Shown here in pieces: positions 3,576 to 27,940 of a stretch of DNA of 32,949 nucleotides; the stretch's first letter is position 1; each line of letters opens with the position of its first letter. A program made the position numbers and the translations under genes. The stretch comes from an uncultured bacterium (lineage in GTDB: Bacteria > Planctomycetota > UBA1135), in contig CAXGOF010000003.1 of the NCBI GenBank assembly GCA_964011335.1, forward strand, positions 1 through 32,949. Direction: 5' to 3'. The notes below the pieces were generated by a model that was not told the DNA's origin, made no database searches, and saw nothing but the letters and a program-made list of their open reading frames with translations.

Positions 3576-4438
3576 GCTACTGGTTTATTTGATTTACTCG
3601 GGCCTTGGGTGTACATGGGCTTATTTGATTCACTCGGCCCTTGGCGATGCATCCAAATCAAGAAAGTAATTAGGAGCACTCCGACAAATGTCATCACATA
3701 CTTTGTAATGATCCAAGCGTTAGCCACAAAAGTGCCGGACGCAGCGTCGTAAGAGAAACAGCGCAATATCAAAGCATCGACAGTTGACACGAATTTCGAG
3801 TCAGCTGTTTCCGCCATCGACAAGCGCAGTGTGCTCGGCTGGTATTCGATGCCATAAAGGTATCGTGCTACCTGAGCTTTAGGGTCGAGAAGAGTGAGGA
3901 CGGCAGTGTGCGCATACTCATTTTTATTTTCGACGAAGTTGTAGGTAAAGCCAACAGCTTTGGCGACTGCGCGAATGTCTGCTTCGCTGCCGCGCAAAAA
4001 ATGCCACCCGTCAGAGGCTGTTGGGGCGTCATACTTTGACAAAATCTTGGCGCGAAAGCCCTGCGCCATCTCTTCGGTTTCGCTTGGGTCAAGACTGATC
4101 GTTATAACCTGGAACTGCTTACCGACCTGCCAATCTTCTAACTGATTCAAGGTTCTCACGAATCCATCCAACTGTAAATTGCACAGCTGCGGGCAATTGG
4201 CATAGTTCAATGTAAGCACCACAGGGCGCTCGCCATCAAAGTATTGCGAAAGCGGCGCAGTGCTGCCTAGCGTGTCCGTAAATTGCAGATCGAGAGGGAT
4301 CGTTACACCGAGTTGTTCGCTTACGCCGACATCTCTGATATCACGCGTCTCAAAGCCTACCTGCGCAGGAGTTAGGCTCACCGCCATGGCGGTGACAAAA
4401 AATGCCATCACCCATTCACGCGATAAACTTAAATTCAA
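3572..4438 (-). CDS. SCO/SenC family copper chaperone
   Basis: YANCPQLC (CxxxC) and conserved His (YAHTA), N-terminal signal and C-terminal TM. Sits between act genes and coxII. Start codon uncertain (TTG). Confidence 0.9.
   Translation of the reverse strand: MNLSLSREWVMAFFVTAMAVSLTPAQVGFETRDIRDVGVSEQLGVTIPLDLQFTDTLGSTAPLSQYFDGERPVVLTLNYANCPQLCNLQLDGFVRTLNQLEDWQVGKQFQVITISLDPSETEEMAQGFRAKILSKYDAPTASDGWHFLRGSEADIRAVAKAVGFTYNFVENKNEYAHTAVLTLLDPKAQVARYLYGIEYQPSTLRLSMAETADSKFVSTVDALILRCFSYDAASGTFVANAWIITKYVMTFVGVLLITFLIWMHRQGPSESNKPMYTQGPSKSNKPVA
3582..3644. repeat. Imperfect 27-bp direct repeat with 36-bp period in the SCO 3' end
   Basis: ggtttatttgatttactcgggccttgg (3582-3608) vs ggcttatttgattcactcggcccttgg (3618-3644); encodes QGPSESNKP / QGPSKSNKP. 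Confidence 0.8.
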
Positions 4439-17666: not shown

Positions 17667-18284
17667 CTGAACAACACCCCACTCCTCTACATCGCCGATC
17701 CCATGTGCTCGTGGTGTTGGGGCTTTGCACCGACATTAACCGCAATCGAACGGGCTTACCCCAATCGCAAAATACAATTAGTCCTCGGCGGACTCGCACC
17801 TGACTCCGACGAGCCCATGGACCAAGCCACCCGCGACTATGTCCAGCAGGCATGGCGCGCCGTCGCGCAAACTACTGGCGCCAAATTCAATTTCGACTTT
17901 TGGACAAGCTGTTCACCGCGGCGCTCCACTTGGATTGCTTGTCGTGCGGTTATCGTCGCCCGCCGCTTTAAGCTCGAGCGCGAAATGTTTGACGCGATTC
18001 AACACGCCTATTATCTAGAAGCGAGAAATCCTTCTGGTGAAAACGTACTCGCCGATGTTGCTCAACAATTAAATATCCCGCGTTCGGAATTTTTAGAAGC
18101 ACTCAGCGCGCCAGAAACGCAGGAGCAACTCGAGGAAGATTTCGCATTACGCCAACGCTTAGGCGCCAACAGTTTCCCCAGCATTGGCATCATTCAATCA
18201 GACCGGCCGACACTTCTACACAGCGGATACTGCGCACCCGACGACATCTCGGCCTTGCTTAGCTTTATCGCTTCCTTGGAATAA
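17667..18284 (+). CDS. DsbA/FrnE-like thioredoxin-fold protein (CSWC)
   Basis: LLYIADPMCSWCWGF and cis-Pro FP motif. The conserved YIADP strand lies upstream of ATG 17703, so the real start is earlier; CTG 17667 is tentative. Confidence 0.85.
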   Translation: MNNTPLLYIADPMCSWCWGFAPTLTAIERAYPNRKIQLVLGGLAPDSDEPMDQATRDYVQQAWRAVAQTTGAKFNFDFWTSCSPRRSTWIACRAVIVARRFKLEREMFDAIQHAYYLEARNPSGENVLADVAQQLNIPRSEFLEALSAPETQEQLEEDFALRQRLGANSFPSIGIIQSDRPTLLHSGYCAPDDISALLSFIASLE

Positions 18285-18309
18285 TACCGCGCCTAGTTAT
18301 AGTATCCCG

Positions 18310-19941
18310 ATGAGCACTTCCCCGAAACGGCTTCACCACCTTGACGCACTACGTAGCTTTGCCATGTTGCTCGGCATCGTTTTGCACGCGTCATTGTCCT
18401 TTATGCCTTTCCCGTGGCCGGTGCAAGATAGCGAACAAAACACTTCATTGTATTTGGTGTTTAGTGCGATACATGGTTTCCGTATGCCACTGTTTTTTCT
18501 ACTCAGCGGTTTTTTTACGGCCATGCTGTGGCGCAAACGCGGGGTTTTATCTCTAGCAAAGCACCGGGTTAAACGTATCTTGTTACCGTTGGTCATCGGC
18601 TGCTTTACGATTATTCCTGCGACCAACTGGGCTATTGAATACGTATCCCGAACTCATGGGGCAAGCACTGCGCCAATAAAGATTTCAGAACTTACACCAC
18701 TCAACCGCGATGACATTATCGGCGAAACAGATCCAAAAAAATTAAACCTGCTCACCGAGGCCGCAATCCGCCGTAACGACAGCGACTCGTTAACGCTCCT
18801 TATTGAGCAAGGCGCTGACGTTAACTACAAATCTGAAATAAAAATTTCGGCACTGCATTGGGCCGCCGGTCTCGGACACACTGAGATGATCACGATTCTG
18901 CTTGATAAAGGCGCTGATATTAATGCCGGTGACGGAAAGGACAGCACAGCTATGCACTGGGCAGCACTATTTGGGCGTCCACAAGTTGCAGCCCTACTCA
19001 TTGAACGCGGCGCGGACCTTGCGCGCCCGAACAGCGATGGCGCGACACCATTCAGCATGTCCACCCCGGAGGCTCGCACATCCGTTGCCCCTCTAGGGAC
19101 GATATGCGCCGGATTACTGAGCATACCTTTTGATGAGAGCGCTTTTTACGCCGACTCTAAGGCGCTGCATGAACTCATACTCAACTCTGACTACACACCG
19201 CAGCCAACTAGTTCTGCGCAAACCGACCTACTCCGCATCCCTCTCCTCCATCACTTGTGGTTCTTGTGGTATTTGTTTTTATTAGTGATTGCCTTTTGCT
19301 GCACGACTGGTGCTGCAAAGTATATGAGCGGTCTAAATCGGCTTACTCCACTAGTAGTTAAGCCATTTAGATATTTATGGATGCTACCACTGGTGGCTTT
19401 GTGTCAATTACAAATGGGCCCGGAAATCTTCGGCCCTGACACTTCGACGGCACTCTTGCCCAATGTGTTAATCTTAAGTTATTACGCGGTGTTCTTTTTC
19501 TTTGGTGCCGCCTATTTCTTAAGCGATGATCGCGAAGAACGCCTGGGTCGTTATTTCTGGTTGACGCTACCTGCTGCTTTTGGCGCACTCCTCATCGGAA
19601 TGGGCCACCTCGAACCGGGTGCCGACAACACTACATCAATGGCCTGGTGGGTAGCAGCCTACACTTGCTTCATGAGCTTCGGACTCATTGGGCTATGCCG
19701 CAAGATTTTTTCTGCTGAGAAAGCATGGGTGCGCTATATCTCAGATGCTTCGTATTGGATGTATATCGCTCACTTACCCTTAGTGTTCCTCGCCCAAAAA
19801 TATGTGACAGAATGGGATGCCCCTGCTTTTACAAAGCTCGCGGTTATTTGCATCGCTTTAGCCATAATACTGCTGGCAAGCTATCAACTACTGGTGCGGC
19901 ATACGCCTATCGGCTGGCTACTTAATGGGCGCCGTAAATAA
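18310..19941 (+). CDS. Acyltransferase-3 (OpgC/MdoC-like) membrane protein with inserted ankyrin repeats
   Basis: RLHHLDALRSFAMLLGIVLH, FRMPLFFLLSGFF, HHLWFLWYL, SYWMYIAH. Central ankyrin repeats (LIEQGADVN, SALHWAA..GH, LLDKGADIN, TAMHWAA, LIERGAD). ATG 18310. Confidence 0.88.
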   Translation: MSTSPKRLHHLDALRSFAMLLGIVLHASLSFMPFPWPVQDSEQNTSLYLVFSAIHGFRMPLFFLLSGFFTAMLWRKRGVLSLAKHRVKRILLPLVIGCFTIIPATNWAIEYVSRTHGASTAPIKISELTPLNRDDIIGETDPKKLNLLTEAAIRRNDSDSLTLLIEQGADVNYKSEIKISALHWAAGLGHTEMITILLDKGADINAGDGKDSTAMHWAALFGRPQVAALLIERGADLARPNSDGATPFSMSTPEARTSVAPLGTICAGLLSIPFDESAFYADSKALHELILNSDYTPQPTSSAQTDLLRIPLLHHLWFLWYLFLLVIAFCCTTGAAKYMSGLNRLTPLVVKPFRYLWMLPLVALCQLQMGPEIFGPDTSTALLPNVLILSYYAVFFFFGAAYFLSDDREERLGRYFWLTLPAAFGALLIGMGHLEPGADNTTSMAWWVAAYTCFMSFGLIGLCRKIFSAEKAWVRYISDASYWMYIAHLPLVFLAQKYVTEWDAPAFTKLAVICIALAIILLASYQLLVRHTPIGWLLNGRRK

Positions 19942-20841: not shown

Positions 20842-22533
20842 TTATCTTGGGAAAGGGTCAGAAGACTGCAATAAAATTCTCAGGTCAGCCATAGGGATGG
20901 GCTTCGACCAATAATACCCTTGACCATAGTCACAACCTAATCCTCGCAAGATATCTAATTGCTCTTTATCCTCGATACCTTCTACAACCGAAATGGCGTC
21001 AATGTCTTCGGCTAAGTTAACCATATTAGAGACCACCGCTAATAATTTTGGATTATCGGATATCCCGCTCAAATACGATCTGTCTATCTTCAACTCTGTA
21101 AGTGGTTGTTCGCTTAGAGCACCCAAAGAAGTGAAGCCGGATCCGAAATCGTCAACAGCTAAGCCCATTCCGGAATCTTTCAGCAATCTTAAATTATTTA
21201 GTCCGTCTTTGGATTCAAGGACCGAAGCGCTCTCCGTAATCTCTGCAGTCACCATCTCAAAAGGTATCTCATACGAGCGGACACGCTCTATAAGTTCTTT
21301 AGCAAAAGATGGGTCTAATAATTCAAAGGGGCTAACATTAAAGCTCATGCGTGGCAGCGCCACCTCTAAAGCTTGCATGGCCAAGAACTCTTCCATGGCA
21401 ATATCTCGCAAGAGTGCTCCGAGCTTGTCGATTAATCCCCAATCCTCTGCGACGGAGATAAACTTTTCTGGGCTTACGAACCCAAGCTCTGGGGAATCCC
21501 AACGCGCCAAAGCTTCTGCTCCATGAATGCTGCCATCTGCAAGATTAATTTGTGGCTGCCAAGCAATAGAAAGCTCCGAGCTCTTGGCCTGAACAGCGCG
21601 ATTGATTAGGGAAGGTATATCGAGCCGTAGCGAAGGCAACTTGATACTGTCGTCGGTGTACAAGAATACTTTACCCTTGCCAGACTTAGCTCCCTCTACA
21701 ATGGACTCGAGTCGCTCAACGACTGCAGCTCGTTCAGAACCTTGGTGCGAAGCAAGGATACTCTTATCGACAAAGATAGCAGCCACTAATGGCGCAAACA
21801 CCGCAAGCTGGTGCTCAGGGGCACTCCTCAGAAACAGTCTAGCTATACGAGACTGTAGGGATTTTAATTTGGCCTTACTGTCAATATTGAGTTCGCCAGA
21901 ACCGCCTTCGCAATCGAAGACCGCCACAGAGAAATCATCTTTATTAAAAATCCATTGATCGCCTGTGAAAACTTCTTTAAGGACAGCCTCTATAGTGGAC
22001 AGCAATGCTGGGCGCATACTGCCAGCAAGAGTCTTCACTTGGCCGCTAAACGAGAACCGCAAGAACAGGATGGACGGTAGCGGCCCTGCGGAAGCAACAT
22101 TAAACAAATAGTCATACAACTGATTCGCATAATTATCAGAGAGCGCTGGCTCGCTGCCCGGTACAGGGATTACGCGGTGTATGGAAGCCATCAAGTCATC
22201 GGCATCCCATGGCTTTTCCAGGAGATCCTTTACTCCGGAACGAAGTGCAGTGAGTAGGTTCTGCTTTTGCCCAAATGCTGTGATAACGATAATAGGCATA
22301 TCTCTAGTCCTAGACTGCGACTGCAGCACATTGACTAACTGCATACCTCCCATTTGAGGCATGTTAAGGTCTGTAATAACGACATCATGCAAAACCTTGC
22401 ATTGCTGAATAACCTCAAGCGCCTCAAGCCCATTAGTCGCGGTGTCGGCATCAATACCCTCCAATTCTAAAAAACGCTTGAGGTTTTTTAGAAGGGTCTC
22501 GTCATCTTCAACAATCAGCGCTTTAATTTTCAT
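20842..22533 (-). CDS. Response regulator: REC + degenerate GGDEF-like + EAL c-di-GMP phosphodiesterase
   Basis: REC (IVEDD, ITDLNMP, TA, KP). EAL motifs EALARW, FNVS, EITES, DDFGSG, KIDRS, EGIE, QGY all intact. Confidence 0.92.
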   Translation of the reverse strand: MKIKALIVEDDETLLKNLKRFLELEGIDADTATNGLEALEVIQQCKVLHDVVITDLNMPQMGGMQLVNVLQSQSRTRDMPIIVITAFGQKQNLLTALRSGVKDLLEKPWDADDLMASIHRVIPVPGSEPALSDNYANQLYDYLFNVASAGPLPSILFLRFSFSGQVKTLAGSMRPALLSTIEAVLKEVFTGDQWIFNKDDFSVAVFDCEGGSGELNIDSKAKLKSLQSRIARLFLRSAPEHQLAVFAPLVAAIFVDKSILASHQGSERAAVVERLESIVEGAKSGKGKVFLYTDDSIKLPSLRLDIPSLINRAVQAKSSELSIAWQPQINLADGSIHGAEALARWDSPELGFVSPEKFISVAEDWGLIDKLGALLRDIAMEEFLAMQALEVALPRMSFNVSPFELLDPSFAKELIERVRSYEIPFEMVTAEITESASVLESKDGLNNLRLLKDSGMGLAVDDFGSGFTSLGALSEQPLTELKIDRSYLSGISDNPKLLAVVSNMVNLAEDIDAISVVEGIEDKEQLDILRGLGCDYGQGYYWSKPIPMADLRILLQSSDPFPR

Positions 22534-22618: not shown

Positions 22619-23167
22619 ATGTACGGCATCGTTCACAACTCCCTGCTTGACCACTTAAAAGACAATCATTCCTCACATGAATGGGATAATGTCATGTCAG
22701 AGTTAGCCGACTATCCGCAGGGAGGGTTTCTGCTTTTCGAAAGCTATGATGACTCGAGCCTGCTAAGCATGATTGGGAAGGCTATAGAAATCGGTCAATT
22801 CGAACCCGATGATTTCCTTATAGATTTTGGAGAATATTGGGTGCTTGAGACTGCGCCAAAGCACTTTGGGGCATTTCTATCATTAACGGGCAATGACATT
22901 CATATATTCATGTCGAATTTAAATACCGTGCACGATAGGGCCTCGGCGCTCTTCCCAGGTTATAGCCCACCGTCTTTCCGCATTTTGGGCAATCTAGAGG
23001 ATGGTGACTTACAGGTCTTCTATTCTTCGAAAAGAGAGGGCTTCGAAAGCTTTGTAATAGGATTGCTGCAGGGTGTATGTAAACGCTTTGAAATCTCTTG
23101 CAGCGTCAAGGTTAGCGGCGTTTTAGAAAGCGGAGAATCTGTCTTCGATGTAAACCTGCTTAAATAA
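22619..23167 (+). CDS. H-NOX heme nitric-oxide-binding protein
   Basis: MYGIV start, YDD, FGEYW, proximal His (LNTVHD), PPSF, YxSxR (YSSKR), GLLQG. Confidence 0.93.
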   Translation: MYGIVHNSLLDHLKDNHSSHEWDNVMSELADYPQGGFLLFESYDDSSLLSMIGKAIEIGQFEPDDFLIDFGEYWVLETAPKHFGAFLSLTGNDIHIFMSNLNTVHDRASALFPGYSPPSFRILGNLEDGDLQVFYSSKREGFESFVIGLLQGVCKRFEISCSVKVSGVLESGESVFDVNLLK

Positions 23168-23174
23168 TACTTAT

Positions 23175-24827
23175 ATGGAAGGGATTGACAGAAAAGCTCT
23201 AGGCGACATATTCCCATTTAACTTTAAGGTCGGAAGGGACATGACCCTGCTTGAAGTGTCGTCAAAACTAGCGGCCGTGTCGCCCAAGATGGTAGTCGGC
23301 TCAAAGGCGCTAGATTGCCTTCAGTTCGAGAGGCCGATTCTTAAGCAATACAGCTTCGACACTCTGCTCAATTACCAAAAAGCGACCGTCGAAGTAAAAC
23401 TTGACGATATTCAAGACGTTAACTTCGTCGGGCAGATTGTGCGAAATCAAAGCTCCCAGCAAGAGATTATTTTTCTAGTCAAACCTTTCGCAAAGAGCTT
23501 AAGCAAGCTATCTGATGCTGGGTTCACTCTATCAGACTTTGCGCCTTCAGATGCATTGCCCGATCTTTTACTTGGTATTCAATTCGCCGACACAAAAAGC
23601 ATCCAGCTGAAGAAACAGAATGAGCTATTAAGCGAAGAGATACAAATTAATAGATTTCTGTCTGATATCTTTGCCTGCGACACCCTTGAAAATTTATTTC
23701 TTAATATTGCGCAAAGTATCTCCAGGACACTCGACGCCGATGACGTTATTATTTACAAAGTTGAGTCGTCTTTGGCCCGCCAAGCTGCTGGTGCCGGCAG
23801 CTCCCGCACATCCGCGCAAGTATCAGAATTAGGTTTTGCCATTCCTACTGGAGTGGGAGTTGTGGGCAAAGCTGTGGCAGAACAAAAAACTCAATTGGTC
23901 ATGGATGTTTCTAAGAATGATGATTATATTGAGGATACAGCTAGCCGGGGAGGATCAGAAATATCAGTGCCAGTAATCATTGATGGCCAGGTGATAGCCG
24001 TGATTGATTCTGAATCAGAGGAGATTAATCGGTATTCCGAAGAAGATGTCCATTTGCTAGAGATATTTGCAGGGCTAGCTGGGGCAGCGATTATTAGCCA
24101 AAAAAGACAAGTGCGCGCACAAGAAGAAACACTTCAGGCGGCACAAAGGTTAAAAAGCAAAAATCAAAACCTAAGGTCAATTTCTCATGAGTTCCGTACT
24201 CCGCTGGCCCAACTTTCTTCTGGAGTGCAACTACTTTCTAGGCACGGGGGCGCCATGGGCGGAGTCGAAAGAAAAGAGACTCTAGAAAGCCTTCTGCATC
24301 CAATTGATAGATTGACAAATCTATTTGACTCGTTAATGAACGAAAATGAAGGAGTAAAGGGAGAAATAGTTATCGAAGAGTTTTGCCTTATAAGGCTAAT
24401 TAATCGGATTGCCAAAGAGGCACTGCGTCCATATGGGAGAGGGGGCGACCTCTTAATATCTTCTCCGCTAAAAGAGCTGAAGCTGCATTCCTCTAGAGAG
24501 AGCCTAACGCAGATCATCATCAATTTACTTGTAAATGCTGCTAAGTACTCGACGATTAACACCGAAATAAAAATCGAGGTGGGGCTGCAAGATCGCCGCA
24601 TATTAATATCTGTTTCGGACCTAGGAATCGGAATAAAAGAGAGCAACTTGGGCGCTATCTTTGAGCCACGCATGAGATCAGAAGAGGCTATGTCAATGGC
24701 TGAAGGGTCCGGATTCGGGCTAAGCATCGTCCGTGACAAAATTGGAGAACTCGGAGGTGAAGTTTCCGTTACTAGCACTGTAGGTCTCGGCTCATGCTTC
24801 AAAGTCTCCATTCCGGAAACGGCTTAG
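23175..24827 (+). CDS. Sensor histidine kinase with HNOBA/PAS-like and GAF domains
   Basis: N-terminal FPFNFKVGRDMTLLEV resembles HNOBA. GAF (GVVG..SEISVPV..DSES), H-box SHEFRTPL, NLLVNAAKY, DLGIGI, GSGFGLSI. Confidence 0.92.
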   Translation: MEGIDRKALGDIFPFNFKVGRDMTLLEVSSKLAAVSPKMVVGSKALDCLQFERPILKQYSFDTLLNYQKATVEVKLDDIQDVNFVGQIVRNQSSQQEIIFLVKPFAKSLSKLSDAGFTLSDFAPSDALPDLLLGIQFADTKSIQLKKQNELLSEEIQINRFLSDIFACDTLENLFLNIAQSISRTLDADDVIIYKVESSLARQAAGAGSSRTSAQVSELGFAIPTGVGVVGKAVAEQKTQLVMDVSKNDDYIEDTASRGGSEISVPVIIDGQVIAVIDSESEEINRYSEEDVHLLEIFAGLAGAAIISQKRQVRAQEETLQAAQRLKSKNQNLRSISHEFRTPLAQLSSGVQLLSRHGGAMGGVERKETLESLLHPIDRLTNLFDSLMNENEGVKGEIVIEEFCLIRLINRIAKEALRPYGRGGDLLISSPLKELKLHSSRESLTQIIINLLVNAAKYSTINTEIKIEVGLQDRRILISVSDLGIGIKESNLGAIFEPRMRSEEAMSMAEGSGFGLSIVRDKIGELGGEVSVTSTVGLGSCFKVSIPETA

Positions 24828-25225: not shown

Positions 25226-26113
25226 CTACACTTCTAAGCGATTTTTTTGCGCCAAAATATAGTTTTCAGCAGCCTTGTAAGACGAACGCACCATCGGGCC
25301 AGACGCGCAGTAATCAAAACCAAATTCGCTAACCGCAATATCCCCCCATTCGTCAAACTTATCGGGGTGGACATATTCGACGACGTCCAAAAGTTTTTTA
25401 TTGGGTTGAAGGTATTGGCCTAGCGTAAGAATATTTACATCGACTTTGCGCAAGTCAGTCAGTGTTTCACGCATTTCTTCGTCAGTTTCTCCCAGTCCTA
25501 ACATGATAGAGGACTTGGTAATTAAATCAGGGCGGTAGCGTTTCGCCTCAGCCAGCACGTGCAATGTTTGGTCGTACTTAGCGCGCACATCACGTACGCG
25601 GCGATGTAAGCTTTCGACTGTTTCTATATTGTGGGCAAACACATCTAAACCGCTATCGCAAATAGTATGGATACAATCGTTATCGCCTTGAAAGTCTGGC
25701 GTCAACGCTTCAACCAACATATCTGGACGGCGCGCCTTAATCGCCTTAATGATTTTCGCGTAATGCCCCGCGCCGAAGTCAGGCAAGTCGTCGCGGTCAA
25801 CCGAGGTAATCACAATGTAACGCAATTGCTCAATGTCCGTACTAGCAGCAACCTTTTCTGGCTCGTCATGGTCGAGCCAGCCATTGGGGTTTCCGGTCTT
25901 CACCGCGCAAAAACGGCAGCCGCGTGTGCATACATCGCCCATCACCATGATGGTAGCAGTACCGTCATTCCAGCATTCGCCGAGATTGGGGCAACGCGCC
26001 TCTTCGCACACTGTGAACAGGCTCTTTTCACGAAGAGACTTACGCAAGTCTGCGGTCTTTTGACCGCTTGGCAGCTTCATTTTAAGCCACGATGGTTTTT
26101 TAAGTTCAGTCAT
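25226..26113 (-). CDS. lipA: Lipoyl synthase
   Basis: KPSWL, CEEARCPNLGEC, CTRGCRFC, TSVDRDDL, HNIETV, GQYLQP, RSSY. Confidence 0.98.
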   Translation of the reverse strand: MTELKKPSWLKMKLPSGQKTADLRKSLREKSLFTVCEEARCPNLGECWNDGTATIMVMGDVCTRGCRFCAVKTGNPNGWLDHDEPEKVAASTDIEQLRYIVITSVDRDDLPDFGAGHYAKIIKAIKARRPDMLVEALTPDFQGDNDCIHTICDSGLDVFAHNIETVESLHRRVRDVRAKYDQTLHVLAEAKRYRPDLITKSSIMLGLGETDEEMRETLTDLRKVDVNILTLGQYLQPNKKLLDVVEYVHPDKFDEWGDIAVSEFGFDYCASGPMVRSSYKAAENYILAQKNRLEV

Positions 26114-26131
26114 TTCATTAACTACAAATAG

Positions 26132-26148
26132 ATTATAGCGCGTATAGT
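26132..26148. promoter_or_regulatory. Back-to-back -10 elements for lipA (TATAAT, -) and the selenoprotein gene (TATAGT, +)
   Basis: attatagcgcgtatagt within a 41-bp divergent intergenic region. Confidence 0.55.
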
Positions 26149-26154
26149 GGATTT

Positions 26155-27189
26155 ATGCTTAGTTCACTACTCCTCTCCATGTTCATGCTTGCCGCGCAAG
26201 AGCCCGTAGAAGCCTCAGCGCCCACCACCGTCGAAAGCCTAGACGCGTCATATCAGGCTGCGATGGCCGACTATTATGAGGAACTCAATGCTATGTATGA
26301 ATCGGGTGACTTCACCGATCTCGAGCATCCCATTGAAGCGTACTTTGACCAGTTCCGCACTTTTGCCAAAAACGCAAATATCGCTCGCGGCGCACGTGCC
26401 TATGCACAAATTTGGTGCGTGAAGAACTTCGGTGAAAAGAACTGGACGCACCCTGATAAAGTATTTTCCGGCCTAGCAAAATTATTTACATCCGAGTTCG
26501 CCGACTCTGACTTTGCGCTTGAGTTCGCGGCTGCAATGCGCCGAGTACGACTTGAGGTGACTTTCAAAATTGAAGTCCTCGAAGCGCTTAGCAACGCGAC
26601 TCATTCTGAACCGGTCAAGGCGCACTGCATGCTTGCCTGCGCTTACGCTTACGCGGATGGCGACAATCAGGAGATGGCTGACATCACAGTCGATGGGCTC
26701 ATGGAAAAATATCCAGGGTCTAAAGCAGCTGCCGCAGCCGGCCCCCTGTTGGTCAAGCGTCAACTGCAAGTAAGCAAGGTAGCGCCAGCACTTAGCGGTG
26801 TCGATGTCTATGGCAAAGAGCGCCACCTTATAGACACCCGCGGCAAAGTCACTTTTGTTGTTTTCTGGGGTTTCTGGTGAGGCCCTTGTCGGGGCGAAAT
26901 CCCGACTGAAATAGCGCTAGTTGAGCGCTATGCTGGTCAAGATTTTGAGATCTTCGGCGTCAACACAGACGACAACAAAGAAGAATATCTGAAGGAATGC
27001 GAAGAGATGGGTGTTACCTGGAAGAGCATCTTCACCGGTGGTGGGCGCGAAGGCGCTGCTGCCGATTGGGGCGTCGAGTACTACCCTACTTCATACTTGC
27101 TAGACGCAAATGGCGTCATTCGCTACAAAGATTTGCGCGGTGAGCAACTCGAAGAAAAAGTTGCCGAACTAATGGCGGAACTTAACTAG
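26155..27189 (+). CDS. Exported TlpA/ResA-like thiol-disulfide oxidoreductase, probable selenoprotein (UxxC, Sec at TGA 26878-26880)
   Basis: Reading through TGA gives RGKVTFVVFWGFW-U-GPCRGEIP...EIFGVNTD...WGVEYYPTSYLLDANGVIRY, an uninterrupted TlpA fold of 344 aa, with a hairpin right after the TGA. Confidence 0.88.
26888..26906 (+). promoter_or_regulatory. Candidate bacterial SECIS hairpin
   Basis: GTCGGG-gcgaaat-CCCGAC, a perfect 6-bp stem starting 8 nt after the UGA, with a G at the start of the apical loop. Confidence 0.7.
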
Positions 27190-27940
27190 AACGAGTAAAT
27201 ACCCATTCAGTAGCAGTCGATAGCGGCTTATTGAATTTATAGCCAGCGTCATTGAATTTTTTCAGCTGAGCGACGTTTGTTATTTTATTTTCGATGATGT
27301 AGCGTGTCATCAAGCCGCGTGCGGTCTTGGCGAACACGCCAATCATTTTGTAATCGCCGTTTTTTTTCTCTTTAAACTGCGGAGTAATTAATTGTGCCTG
27401 TAGATTATTGGCAACGACTGCTTTGAAGTATTCGTTCGACGCCAAATTGACAATCACCCCTTCGCCTTCAGCATTTAACGCATCCGACAGATCAGACCCC
27501 CAAAACTTATACAAGTTAGAGCCGCAAGCGTTATCTAGCTTTGTACCCATCTCGAGTCGATAAGGTTGTATTAAATCAAAGGGGCGCAAAACGCCGTAAA
27601 GACCTGACAGAATGCGCACTTGCTTATTGGCGAATTTAAGCTGAGTCTTATTGAGAGTGCCGGCGTCAAGAGCCGCATAAACCGCGCCTTTAAAGCACAG
27701 CAAGCTCGGGTGAGCATTCGTCCCTGAATGGCGCTTCTTCCAGGAAGAGTAACGTTCTACATTAAGCTCAGCCAAAGCATCGCTCAGCTTCATCAGCTCC
27801 GCGACTTCGATTTTCGATTTCGATTTAAGAATTTCAATCAACTTGGCGGACTTATTCAAAAACCGCGGCTGTGTTGATTCGACATCGACAGCACTGGTTG
27901 CGAAATCTAGCTTTTTAGCTGGGGATAATAAGACTAACAT
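27182..27940 (-). CDS. yaaA: Peroxide stress protein YaaA (DUF328)
   Basis: LLSPAK, ILSGLYGVLRPFDLIQPYRLEMG, NLASNEY, KTARG motifs. Confidence 0.95.
   Translation of the reverse strand: MLVLLSPAKKLDFATSAVDVESTQPRFLNKSAKLIEILKSKSKIEVAELMKLSDALAELNVERYSSWKKRHSGTNAHPSLLCFKGAVYAALDAGTLNKTQLKFANKQVRILSGLYGVLRPFDLIQPYRLEMGTKLDNACGSNLYKFWGSDLSDALNAEGEGVIVNLASNEYFKAVVANNLQAQLITPQFKEKKNGDYKMIGVFAKTARGLMTRYIIENKITNVAQLKKFNDAGYKFNKPLSTATEWVFTRSS

What the first reader, a model, noticed from the sequence alone, without database searches (positions are those of the whole stretch)
26155..27189. Hidden selenoprotein: exported TlpA-like thioredoxin with in-frame UGA (W-U-G-P-C) and SECIS-like hairpin
Seen: the 241-aa ORF stops at TGA 26878-26880 exactly where the first Cys of WCGPC belongs. 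The same frame continues 102 codons through the rest of the TlpA fold (GVNTD, cis-Pro YP, LLDANGVIR). A perfect GTCGGG/CCCGAC stem with a G-initiated loop follows. UGA is a real stop elsewhere here (actA, SCO, E1-alpha, mutS). Known: UxxC replacing CxxC plus a 3' hairpin is the bacterial Sec signature. Inference: a 344-aa secreted selenoenzyme with an uncharacterised ~200-aa helical N-terminal domain that gene callers would split in two. Termination at UGA would yield that domain alone. It might service the periplasmic cytochrome c/CuA proteins encoded nearby (speculative).
Basis: partly seen in the sequence, partly recalled or inferred. Interest (0 to 1): 0.9.

Follow-up and report, generated by a model that had tools for sequence, protein, structure and literature searches.

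The report
Hidden selenocysteine TlpA-like periplasmic thioredoxin
This marine planctomycete gene really does encode a selenocysteine-containing, probably exported thioredoxin-type enzyme that gene callers cut in half, but it belongs to a kind of selenoprotein already known from ocean metagenomes.

Summary
ATG 26155 to TAG 27189 is one 344-codon frame, broken only by TGA 26878-26880. That TGA sits where the first Cys of the thioredoxin CxxC motif belongs (W-U-G-P-C).

It is a real Sec codon, not a mutation:
- The same TGA at the same position occurs in all 49 Sec-type homologues examined, from 92% down to about 30% identity.
- dN/dS after the TGA is 0.05-0.07.
- An independent metagenome contig carries the identical TGA.
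- The genome encodes SelA, SelB and a SelD that itself contains Sec.
- tRNA-Sec is missing from this 72.6%-complete MAG, but two same-genus MAGs have it.

Two stable hairpins follow the UGA. The second (26911-26931) is better conserved and has a G-U loop. Both miss the published spacing rule by 1-3 nt.

The protein has a hydrophobic leader, a TPR-like helical domain and a ResA/TlpA/CcmG-like domain.

UxxC Prx-like/TlpA-like selenoproteins have been catalogued since 2005-2008, so this is a new member of a known kind. The added value is that this clade runs across the Planctomycetota sample and is almost always mis-called: 112 of the 150 best N-domain relatives end at the UGA.

The parts
26155..27189 (+). 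Complete selenoprotein gene: 344 codons including one Sec-UGA, plus the TAG stop
   Evidence: frame and translation; 16 full-length orthologues align end to end; dN/dS 0.05-0.10 on both sides of the TGA
26155..26214 (+). N-terminal hydrophobic leader (aa 1-20). Inferred to be a signal peptide or anchor. It has no Cys, so it is not a lipobox
   Evidence: Sequence MLSSLLLSMFMLAAQEPVEA. pLDDT is below 50 for aa 1-20. A hydrophobic N-terminus is conserved in all 16 orthologues. No signal-peptide predictor was available, so this is inference
26215..26769 (+). All-helical TPR-like N-domain (aa 21-205, about 10 helices)
   Evidence: AF2 model pLDDT 93.7. No Pfam family above cut-off. Profile against PDB sequences: CpoB E=2e-5, BamD/YfiO E=1.6e-4. 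Foldseek gives only weak TPR-type hits, best E 0.055
26773..27186 (+). ResA/TlpA/CcmG-like thioredoxin-fold domain (aa 207-344)
   Evidence: Pfam Redoxin 52.5 bits and AhpC-TSA 51.7 bits, both over cut-off. PDB sequence hits to ResA/TlpA/DsbE. Foldseek TMt 0.81-0.87 to 4nmu, 4grf, 3gl3, 1st9
26878..26880 (+). Sec-UGA (residue U242), in the place of the N-terminal nucleophilic Cys of CxxC
   Evidence: same position in 49 of 49 TGA-type homologues. It aligns with the first Cys of ResA's CxxC. An independent DNA contig is identical
26878..26889 (+). Redox motif U-G-P-C
   Evidence: Columns W241, C(U)242, G243 and C245 are invariant in 16 orthologues
26888..26906 (+).
   Evidence: -10.7 kcal/mol, z -3.71. 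Relatives have a hairpin of different sequence at about this place, but the register slips; only 51% of cells pair in a fixed register
26911..26931 (+). Hairpin 2: AUAGCGCU-AGUUG-AGCGCUAU, 38 nt between the UGA and the loop. Best-conserved SECIS candidate
   Evidence: -11.2 kcal/mol, z -3.46; 84.5% of cells paired in register against 19.5-50.6% when slid; 3 of 6 pairs changed on both sides. G and U of the loop are invariant in 29 sequences
27085..27087 (+). Codon of P311 in Y-P-T, at the position of the thioredoxin-fold cis-proline
   Evidence: P311 and T312 are invariant in 16 orthologues. The cis conformation itself was not tested

Best explanation
The locus is one gene for a 344-residue selenoprotein.

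Shown:
- UGA 26878-26880 occupies the position of the attacking Cys of a ResA/TlpA/CcmG-type CxxC motif.
- The TGA is conserved across the family, the order and the phylum sample.
- The sequence after it evolves as protein.
- The genome has SelA, SelB and a Sec-type SelD.

Inferred: SelB with Sec-tRNA(Sec) is recruited to the ribosome by mRNA structure just downstream. That structure is two adjacent hairpins, and the second (26911-26931, G-U loop) is the more likely SelB site.

Inferred from the hydrophobic leader and from the family's biology: the product is exported. In the periplasm, the selenolate of U242 attacks disulfides or other oxidised sulfur in client proteins. This forms a selenenylsulfide that C245 resolves. 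The U-C pair is then re-reduced by a CcdA/DsbD-type membrane protein; one is encoded on contig C57.

Inferred from its fold: the TPR-like N-domain selects clients or partners. The clients are unknown.

If decoding fails, for example when selenium is scarce, termination at the UGA would release a 241-residue protein. It would hold the N-domain and the first 35 residues of the thioredoxin domain, without the redox motif.
For: 1. Frame and motif.
2. Conservation in relatives: in 60 relatives plus the own genome, 52 of the 54 best places have exactly one TGA. The two exceptions are a contig-end fragment and one Cys form.
3. Motif check: 29 of 29 loci that cover the motif, plus 20 of 20 further TGA hits, read FWGxW-U-(G/P)xC.
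4. Phylum sample of 151 genomes: 57 of 81 listed places, including all of the 40 best, have one TGA. They lie in 30 genomes.
5. Purifying selection: dN/dS downstream of the TGA is 0.069 and 0.054; upstream it is 0.097 and 0.095.
6. Machinery: SelA 402.6 bits, SelB wing domain 60.9 bits, SelD 298.9 bits with one TGA, read as AASAG-U-AAK.
7. tRNA-Sec scores above Rfam's cut-off in 4 of 5 relatives, including two same-genus MAGs. The anticodon is TCA.
8. RNA structure: the mean synonymous-shuffle z of nt +7..+54 is -2.09 in 49 Sec forms and -0.40 in 15 Cys forms, at equal GC.
9. bSECIS criteria are met by 26 of 49 Sec forms against 1 of 15 Cys forms. With spacing relaxed to 13-38 nt, the figures are 37 of 49 against 1 of 15.
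10. Hairpin 2 covaries in register.
11. Independent reads: one DNA contig (X3, 26342-27089) shows 0 differences. RNA-library contigs cover 26865-27136.
12. Fold.
13. A DsbD_TM gene is present in the genome.
Against: - tRNA-Sec was not found in this MAG. It is 72.6% complete and only 23 tRNAs were recovered.
- Neither of the window's hairpins meets the published 16-37 nt spacing when it is counted between the UGA and the loop: 13-14 nt and 38 nt.
- The leader has no positively charged n-region, and no signal-peptide predictor was run.
- The RNA-library contig that includes the TGA has only 13 nt on its 5' side, and DNA carry-over in those libraries cannot be excluded.
- There is no protein-level evidence of selenium.
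- Kin are not independent, so the p-values overstate.
- The client proteins, the role of the N-domain and re-reduction by DsbD/CcdA are inferences only.
Confidence: 0.9

Rival explanations
1. Recent nonsense mutation, pseudogene or assembly error: the TGA replaces a TGC/TGT Cys codon and the gene is dead or mis-assembled.
For: Only that gene callers stop there and that TGA is a normal stop in this genome.
Against: All 49 Sec-type homologues examined have the same TGA, down to about 30% identity. dN/dS after the TGA is 0.05-0.07. An identical contig exists in an independent run. No close orthologue has Cys; the single near full-length call reads W because it was translated with TGA=Trp.
Confidence: 0.01
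2. Termination is the main outcome. The functional product is the 241-aa helical protein, and the thioredoxin part is rarely or never made. Alternatively, the UGA works as a selenium-dependent switch between a TPR-only product and the full enzyme.
For: Bacterial Sec insertion is generally inefficient (general knowledge, not tested here). The N-domain folds confidently on its own, pLDDT 93.7. Neither hairpin has canonical spacing.
Against: The part after the UGA is the most conserved part of the protein: 92-100% identity within the genus, with many invariant columns. Its dN/dS is lower than upstream, so it is translated often enough to be selected. The truncated product would end 35 residues into the thioredoxin domain (aa 207-241), which is an unlikely designed terminus.
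Confidence: 0.05
3. Same selenoprotein, different job: a dedicated maturation factor for the nearby cytochrome c, CuA and Sco proteins (TlpA/CcmG/ResA role).
For: The closest solved folds include ResA, CcmG and the TlpA-ScoI/CoxB complexes. COX1, COX2-cytochrome c, SCO1/SenC and alternative complex III lie in the same window.
Against: Those genes lie about 13.7 kb or more away on the opposite strand. An H-NOX/histidine-kinase/EAL module, surE, an acyltransferase, a DsbA-like gene and lipA lie between. No neighbour is conserved beyond genus level. Larger genomes of the order carry 3-4 or more Sec-type paralogues with varied N-terminal parts, which suggests many clients rather than one pathway. 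NCBIfam TlpA, ResA and DsbE models score far below their cut-offs.
Confidence: 0.12
4. Same selenoprotein, acting as a periplasmic antioxidant: a thiol/selenol peroxidase, or a reductant for oxidised Met or Cys in envelope proteins, rather than a disulfide reductase for protein maturation.
For: AhpC/TSA and Redoxin Pfam hits. The literature files such proteins as 'Prx-like' (PMC2398784 Table 2 and PMC13188914 table, passages read). The convergent neighbour is the peroxide-stress gene yaaA, and that neighbour is kept in the same-genus locus L014.
Against: The peroxiredoxin signature (Thr/Ser three residues before the peroxidatic residue) is absent; the sequence is F-W-G-F-W-U. The best structural matches are ResA/DsbE-type reductases. 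yaaA is on the other strand and is not a neighbour outside the genus.
Confidence: 0.2

Closest known systems
Prx-like thiol:disulfide oxidoreductase selenoproteins (pfam00578/pfam08534, UxxC). These are 'Prx-like 1/3' and 'Trx-like' of the Sargasso Sea and GOS selenoproteomes. Sources: PMC1088965, PMC2398784, PMC9312934, PMC13188914; passages read
   Same: A thioredoxin-fold AhpC-TSA/Redoxin domain with Sec as the first residue of UxxC. They are abundant in marine metagenomes, have a hairpin after the UGA, and are predicted only by bioinformatics. GOS also reports fusions of Prx-like 3 with unknown domains.
   Different: This clade has its own conserved FWGxW-U-GPC signature and a TPR-like N-domain of about 185 aa. 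It is spread across the Planctomycetota sample, a phylum that the two reviews do not mention (0 occurrences). Direct homology to the reviews' reference member was not tested, and the supplements with the fusion alignments were closed.
ResA / CcmG(DsbE) / TlpA extracytoplasmic thiol-disulfide oxidoreductases (e.g. PDB 4nmu, 1st9, 2b1k, 1jfu, 4txo)
   Same: Fold (TMt 0.81-0.87, 23-30% identity), CxxC position, the Pro at the cis-Pro position, and an N-terminal export or anchor segment.
   Different: Sec replaces the nucleophilic Cys, and there is an extra TPR-like domain. NCBIfam ResA, DsbE and TlpA models score 36-63 bits against cut-offs of 123-359, so this is not an equivalog of any of them.
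[quoted passage not shown]
   Same: A ResA/TlpA-like selenoprotein with an N-terminal extension.
   Different: The motif differs (W-U-G-P-C, a UxxC, not UGC). The score is 30.1 bits against a cut-off of 300.
Algal 'TlpA' selenoprotein family (PMC7539508, passages read)
   Same: Named as a TlpA-type thioredoxin-like selenoprotein that is mostly Sec-containing.
   Different: It is eukaryotic, with a 3'-UTR SECIS and a hemerythrin-domain fusion. No sequence comparison was made here.

Membership tests
Bacterial selenoprotein gene (SelB-dependent UGA recoding) | In-frame UGA aligned with a redox-active Cys of homologues, with the ORF continuing and conserved | tested here: met
Bacterial selenoprotein gene (SelB-dependent UGA recoding) | bSECIS: 3-9 nt loop, 4-16 bp stem, G in the first two loop positions, 16-37 nt from the UGA, MFE of -7.5 kcal/mol or lower (PMC13188914 Fig. 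2 legend) | tested here: inconclusive
   Both window hairpins meet the loop, stem, G and energy criteria, but their spacing is 13-14 nt and 38 nt. Family-wide, 26 of 49 Sec forms comply against 1 of 15 Cys forms. The counting convention for spacing is not stated in the passage I read
Bacterial selenoprotein gene (SelB-dependent UGA recoding) | selA, selB and selD in the genome | tested here: met
Bacterial selenoprotein gene (SelB-dependent UGA recoding) | tRNA-Sec (selC) in the genome | tested here: not met
   Not found in this 72.6%-complete MAG. It is present in same-genus G005 and G002 (74.7 bits each, anticodon TCA). Those contigs have no counterpart in this assembly, so this is read as an assembly gap
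Bacterial selenoprotein gene (SelB-dependent UGA recoding) | Selenium in the protein | not testable with these tools
   Needs 75Se labelling or mass spectrometry
TlpA/ResA/CcmG-like thioredoxin-fold oxidoreductase (Pfam Redoxin PF08534 / AhpC-TSA PF00578) | Pfam score above the gathering cut-off | tested here: met
   52.5 bits against 26.6, and 51.7 bits against 26
TlpA/ResA/CcmG-like thioredoxin-fold oxidoreductase (Pfam Redoxin PF08534 / AhpC-TSA PF00578) | Thioredoxin fold with the CxxC at the N-terminus of helix 1 and a conserved Pro at the cis-Pro position | tested here: met
   Model pLDDT 90. TMt 0.81-0.87 to ResA/DsbE structures. P311 is invariant. The cis geometry was not examined
TlpA/ResA/CcmG-like thioredoxin-fold oxidoreductase (Pfam Redoxin PF08534 / AhpC-TSA PF00578) | Extracytoplasmic location | tested here: inconclusive
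   Hydrophobic N-terminus conserved in 16 orthologues. No predictor was available
Prx-like thiol:disulfide oxidoreductase selenoprotein family, as defined in PMC9312934 / PMC13188914 (pfam00578 + UxxC/UxxU) | pfam00578 domain with Sec in a UxxC motif | tested here: met
   The definition is by domain plus motif (passage)
Peroxiredoxin proper | Peroxidatic residue in a T/S-x-x-C(U) context | tested here: not met
   The sequence reads G-F-W-U
NCBIfam NF041054 ResA-like WAxxUGC selenoprotein | Score above the curated cut-off, and the UGC motif | tested here: not met
   30.1 bits against 300; the motif is WUGPC
TPR repeat proteins (N-domain) | Significant match to TPR profiles or structures | tested here: inconclusive
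   TPR_6 and YfiO match below cut-off in 3 of 16 members. CpoB E=2e-5. Foldseek best E 0.055, with 0 hits at E of 0.001 or lower

The most novel reading that the evidence does not exclude
The window's gene represents an uncatalogued family of extracytoplasmic selenoproteins found across Planctomycetota: a TPR-like domain plus a TlpA domain with FWGxW-U-GPC.
- It has several Sec paralogues per genome.
- It includes two-Sec fusion forms (Thioredoxin_7 UxxC + TPR-like + TlpA UxxC in one ORF).
- It is almost wholly hidden in public protein catalogues as truncated 'hypothetical proteins' of about 250 aa.
- In this clade it is decoded through an atypical tandem-hairpin SECIS, whose SelB-binding loop lies 38 nt from the UGA.

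The UGA would then also act as a selenium-dependent switch between a TPR-only product and the full enzyme.
Probability: 0.25. Interest if true: 0.55.

Novelty: new member of a known kind. Interest (0 to 1): 0.38.

Why it matters
For annotation, this gene and at least 112 clusters of relatives at 50% identity are stored in public catalogues as C-terminally truncated hypothetical proteins. Their catalytic domain is missing from those entries. A dedicated family model with a Sec-aware rule would fix them.

For biology, it shows that marine Planctomycetota place selenocysteine in the active site of probably exported thiol-disulfide oxidoreductases, often in several paralogues and sometimes twice in one chain. 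That gives a concrete handle on envelope redox chemistry and on selenium demand in this phylum.

For the recoding field, the tandem hairpins lie just outside the usual spacing window. They offer a natural test case for how far a bacterial SECIS can sit from its UGA.

None of this overturns current understanding, because UxxC thioredoxin-fold selenoproteins are the commonest kind in marine metagenomes.

Tried and rejected
- Rfam scan of 26500-27300 at E up to 10. It returned only two chance matches, a miRNA and a lncRNA model. Rfam appears to hold no bacterial SECIS model that matches here.
- RNAalifold on the gapless 29-sequence alignment. It found no meaningful consensus (3 invariant pairs), because hairpin 1 changes register between clades.
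- Fixed-register pair counting of hairpin 1. Only 51% of cells paired, so I replaced it with the register-free energy test and the rule-based scan.
- dN/dS against L015. The result is invalid because a one-codon indel breaks the gapless comparison, so I dropped it.
- Cys-form control set. Of the 20 no-TGA loci fetched, 5 did not match my motif pattern: L050, L052, L053, L058, L059. I left them out, so the control is 15 sequences.
- My translation of the SelD locus was in the wrong frame. I redid it.
- Whole-model Foldseek said nothing about the N-domain, so I made a separate N-domain model.
- Conserved-neighbour search in 12 loci. Nothing is shared beyond the genus or close pairs.
- The DsbA-like ORF 17703-18284 was checked for a hidden UGA. 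It has an ordinary CSWC.
- RNA evidence. All runs were Logan contigs, so there is no depth, strand or transcript-end information. No RNA contig bridges the UGA with 31 nt or more on both sides. Parts of the stretch without cover are not evidence.
- Literature. Searches found no paper describing this planctomycete TPR-TlpA Sec family or the WUGPC motif. [quoted passage not shown] So I do not claim it is unpublished.
Full report
OBSERVATION

The window holds an ATG at 26155 and a table-11 ORF of 241 codons that stops at TGA 26878-26880. The same frame then runs another 102 codons to TAG 27187-27189. Read through, the junction is ...GKVTFVVFWGFW-U-GPCRGEIP....

Pfam places Redoxin (52.5 bits), AhpC-TSA (51.7 bits) and Thioredoxin_8 on residues 207-336, which straddle the TGA. 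Nothing matches residues 1-206. In an alignment to solved ResA, the TGA falls on the first Cys of CxxC.

TGA is otherwise a normal stop here:
- The ActA-type multihaem cytochrome, SCO1/SenC, an E1-alpha and mutS in this window all end in TGA.
- So do 154 of 920 long ORFs in the genome.

IS IT A SEC CODON OR A LESION?

The window lies in a MAG of 1.77 Mb in 253 contigs, 72.6% complete and 0.99% contaminated. Record titles of near-identical relatives name it Planctomycetota.

I searched 60 relatives in six frames with the read-through protein. Of the 54 best places, 52 contain exactly one TGA. The two exceptions are a contig-end fragment covering only residues 1-135 (G004) and one Cys form (G057:C1:316801).

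Reading the loci gave these results:
- All 29 loci that cover the motif read FWGxW-U-(G/P)xC. A thirtieth locus, L017, is cut before the motif.
- All 20 further TGA hits that I fetched read the same, making 49 of 49.
- Fifteen no-TGA paralogues read FWATW-C-GPC (14) or FWGFW-C-GSC (1, L041). Five of the 20 fetched no-TGA loci did not match my pattern and were dropped.

In an even sample of 151 genomes of the phylum, 46 have a match at E of 1e-20 or lower. Of the 81 places listed, 57 carry one TGA, including all of the 40 best. These lie in 30 genomes of many families.

Against the two genus orthologues that align without gaps, dN/dS is 0.069 and 0.054 downstream of the TGA, and 0.097 and 0.095 upstream. 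The part after the stop is therefore selected as protein.

An independent metagenome run from another study (X3) has a contig covering 26342-27089 with no difference. Contigs from two metatranscriptome libraries cover 26698-26848, 26865-27015 and 26901-27136, also without differences. They do not bridge the TGA by 31 nt on both sides, and DNA carry-over cannot be excluded.

A mutation, a pseudogene or an assembly error is excluded.

MACHINERY

The genome encodes SelA (402.6 bits), the SelB winged-helix domain in a 659-codon frame (60.9 bits), and SelD (298.9 bits). SelD itself reads AASAG-U-AAK, which makes it a second selenoprotein in the same organism.

tRNA-Sec was not found here; only 23 tRNAs were recovered, and the Rfam hits are tRNA-Ser. 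Four of five relatives have it above Rfam's threshold. These include two MAGs of the same genus (74.7 bits each), one of which carries the 91%-identical orthologue. ARAGORN calls them tRNA-SeC with anticodon TCA. Those small contigs have no blastn counterpart in this assembly. I read the absence as an assembly gap, but formally this feature is not met in this genome.

RNA STRUCTURE AFTER THE UGA

Two adjacent hairpins follow:
- HP1: 26888-26906, GUCGGGG-CGAAA-UCCCGAC, -10.7 kcal/mol, z -3.71.
- HP2: 26911-26931, AUAGCGCU-AGUUG-AGCGCUAU, -11.2 kcal/mol, z -3.46.

Relatives have a hairpin of different sequence at about the same place; for example, the arms become GUCGGU/ACCGAC, GUAAGGG/CCCUUAC, GUGUGGG/CCCACAC and GUGUGGC/GCCACAC. 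However, its register slips by one to four columns between clades. Counting in a fixed register therefore gives only 51% of cells paired, and RNAalifold finds nothing.

HP2 keeps its register:
- 84.5% of cells pair, against 19.5-50.6% when the partner is slid.
- 3 of 6 pairs change on both sides.
- 13 cells carry compensatory changes, a count reached by 0 of 500 shuffles.
- The G and U of its loop are invariant in all 29 sequences.

A register-free test gave a clear contrast. I folded nt +7 to +54 and compared each fold with 200 synonymous-codon shuffles. The mean z is -2.09 for 49 Sec forms and -0.40 for 15 Cys forms, at equal GC of 0.62 (Mann-Whitney p = 3.5e-5; kin are not independent).

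I then applied the published bSECIS rules (PMC13188914, Fig. 2 legend, read) with ungapped stems:
- 26 of 49 Sec forms comply, against 1 of 15 Cys forms.
- Widening the spacing to 13-38 nt gives 37 of 49 against 1 of 15.
- The window's own hairpins meet every rule except spacing: 13-14 nt for HP1 and 38 nt for HP2, against 16-37 nt.

In the paralogue clade (RAMYPHERSLV) the element is a canonical CACGAGC-GGUC-GCUCGUG hairpin at 31 nt. In the two-Sec orthologues, the first UGA is followed by CUCGAGG-AGUU-CCUCGAG at 22 nt. The lineage's recurring loop motif is therefore (N)GU, which HP2 has and HP1 lacks. I rate HP2 the more likely SelB site (roughly 55:35), with HP1 perhaps shortening the effective distance. 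This is inference.

THE PROTEIN

AlphaFold2 on 16 orthologues gives pLDDT 90:
- residues 1-20 are disordered;
- about ten helices span 26-203;
- a thioredoxin fold spans 207-343.

Foldseek matches ResA, DsbE/CcmG and TlpA-type structures with TMt 0.81-0.87 at 23-30% identity.

The N-domain modelled alone has pLDDT 93.7. It resembles only generic TPR-like repeats:
- Foldseek best E is 0.055, with none at E of 0.001 or lower.
- The profile against PDB sequences gives CpoB at 2e-5 and BamD/YfiO at 1.6e-4.
- Sub-threshold TPR_6 or YfiO matches occur in 3 of 16 members.

The N-terminus is hydrophobic in all orthologues and has no lipobox Cys. Export is inferred, not tested.

NCBIfam has no model for this protein. 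ResA, DsbE and TlpA models score far below their cut-offs, and the curated selenoprotein model NF041054 (WAxxUGC) scores 30 bits against a cut-off of 300.

A DsbD/CcdA-type membrane protein is encoded on contig C57.

FAMILY PICTURE

A profile of the N-domain finds 1,676 representatives at E of 0.001 or lower, 211 at 1e-10 or lower and 14 at 1e-30 or lower, among 1.84 billion. The best 150 break down as follows:
- 112 end in an aromatic-x-W pattern right where the UGA would be. All 12 printed examples end FWGFW.
- 5 contain W-C-x-x-C.
- 33 are fragments or long multi-TPR proteins.

The closest database relatives are ten truncated clusters of 225-241 aa. One full-length call has the TGA read as Trp.

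In four family-level orthologues (L018, L019, L020, L022) the frame is longer. It contains signal peptide + Thioredoxin_7 domain with APW-U-(S/G)WC + the helical domain + the TlpA domain, which makes two Sec codons in one ORF.

CONTEXT AND FUNCTION

The gene sits alone on the + strand between lipA (25226-26113, -) and yaaA (27182-27940, -). It overlaps yaaA's 3' end by 8 nt. They end about 13.7 kb upstream on the other strand, with an H-NOX/kinase/EAL module, surE, an acyltransferase and a DsbA-like gene between. No neighbour is conserved beyond the genus.

The best-supported mechanism is therefore a generic one: a periplasmic Sec-based thiol-disulfide reductase whose TPR-like domain chooses clients. 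A role in cytochrome c or CuA maturation (about 0.12) or in oxidative-damage defence (about 0.2) remains possible.

COMPARISON WITH WHAT IS KNOWN

UxxC selenoproteins with AhpC-TSA/Redoxin or thioredoxin domains are among the most abundant selenoprotein families in marine metagenomes. They appear in the literature under names such as 'Prx-like', 'Prx-like 1/3', 'Trx-like' and 'thiol-disulfide isomerase-like', and they are listed in current reviews as predicted with high confidence (PMC1088965, PMC2398784, PMC9312934, PMC13188914; passages read).

Sec use in some Planctomycetes is published (PMC4807772, passages read), but its list of candidates is in a supplement I could not see. 'TlpA' selenoproteins are also named in algae (PMC7539508). 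The two prokaryotic reviews do not mention Planctomycetes (0 occurrences).

By the reviews' own definition (pfam00578 + UxxC), the window's protein is a member of the Prx-like thiol:disulfide oxidoreductase selenoprotein family. It is not a member of the UGC/WAxxUGC families or of the peroxiredoxins proper.

VERDICT

This is a genuine, correctly spotted hidden selenoprotein (confidence 0.9) and a new member of a known kind. Interest is moderate (0.38):
- The individual gene is what a specialist would expect in a marine Sec-using bacterium.
- The near-universal mis-calling, the spread of the TPR-TlpA Sec clade across the phylum sample, the two-Sec fusions and the off-range tandem hairpins are useful and testable additions.

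Noticed in passing
L018 (G034:C61), L019 (G022:C9), L020 (G011:C2), L022 (G021:C21); L021 is cut at a contig end: Family-level orthologues are single ORFs of about 527-531 aa with two in-frame TGAs. The layout is signal peptide + Thioredoxin_7 domain (APW-U-S/GWC) + the TPR-like domain + the TlpA domain (FWGFW-U-GPC). The first UGA is followed by a canonical hairpin, CUCGAGG-AGUU-CCUCGAG, 22 nt downstream.
   Followed up: partly
Genome contig C14:15010-15933 (locus L008): SelD of this organism is itself a selenoprotein (AASAG-U-AAK). It lies about 1.4 kb downstream of selA on the same contig.
   Followed up: partly
Relatives G033, G053, G057, G058 and others; L026 + strand near nt 3991: Larger genomes of the order carry at least 3-4 Sec-type TlpA paralogues each, with different N-terminal parts. 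L026 has another thioredoxin-like gene nearby with D-W-U-G-W-C.
   Followed up: no
L041 (G057:C1:316501-317550): A Cys-form member (FWGFW-C-GSC) sits within the otherwise Sec-only FWGxW clade. This is a candidate Sec-to-Cys reversion, and its downstream RNA shows no excess structure (z -0.74).
   Followed up: no
window 22619-24827 (+) and 20842-22533 (-): An H-NOX (haem-NO-binding) protein is followed by an HNOBA-GAF histidine kinase, next to a response-regulator-EAL phosphodiesterase. This looks like an NO- or O2-sensing c-di-GMP module.
   Followed up: no
window 26114-26154: Only 41 nt separate the divergent starts of lipA and the selenoprotein gene. Its promoter must therefore overlap lipA, or the mRNA is nearly leaderless.
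   Followed up: no
window 27182-27189: The selenoprotein gene and the convergent peroxide-stress gene yaaA overlap by 8 nt at their 3' ends. The yaaA neighbour is kept in the same-genus locus L014.
   Followed up: partly
window 17703-18284 (+): A DsbA-like thioredoxin ORF with an ordinary C-S-W-C motif. It was checked for a hidden UGA and has none. Its 3' end overlaps the next ORF (18184-19941, an acyltransferase with ankyrin repeats) in another frame.
   Followed up: yes
P0002: One public gene call of a 67%-identical orthologue is full length only because the TGA was translated as Trp (FWGFW-W-GPC). The wrong genetic code was applied to that contig.
   Followed up: no
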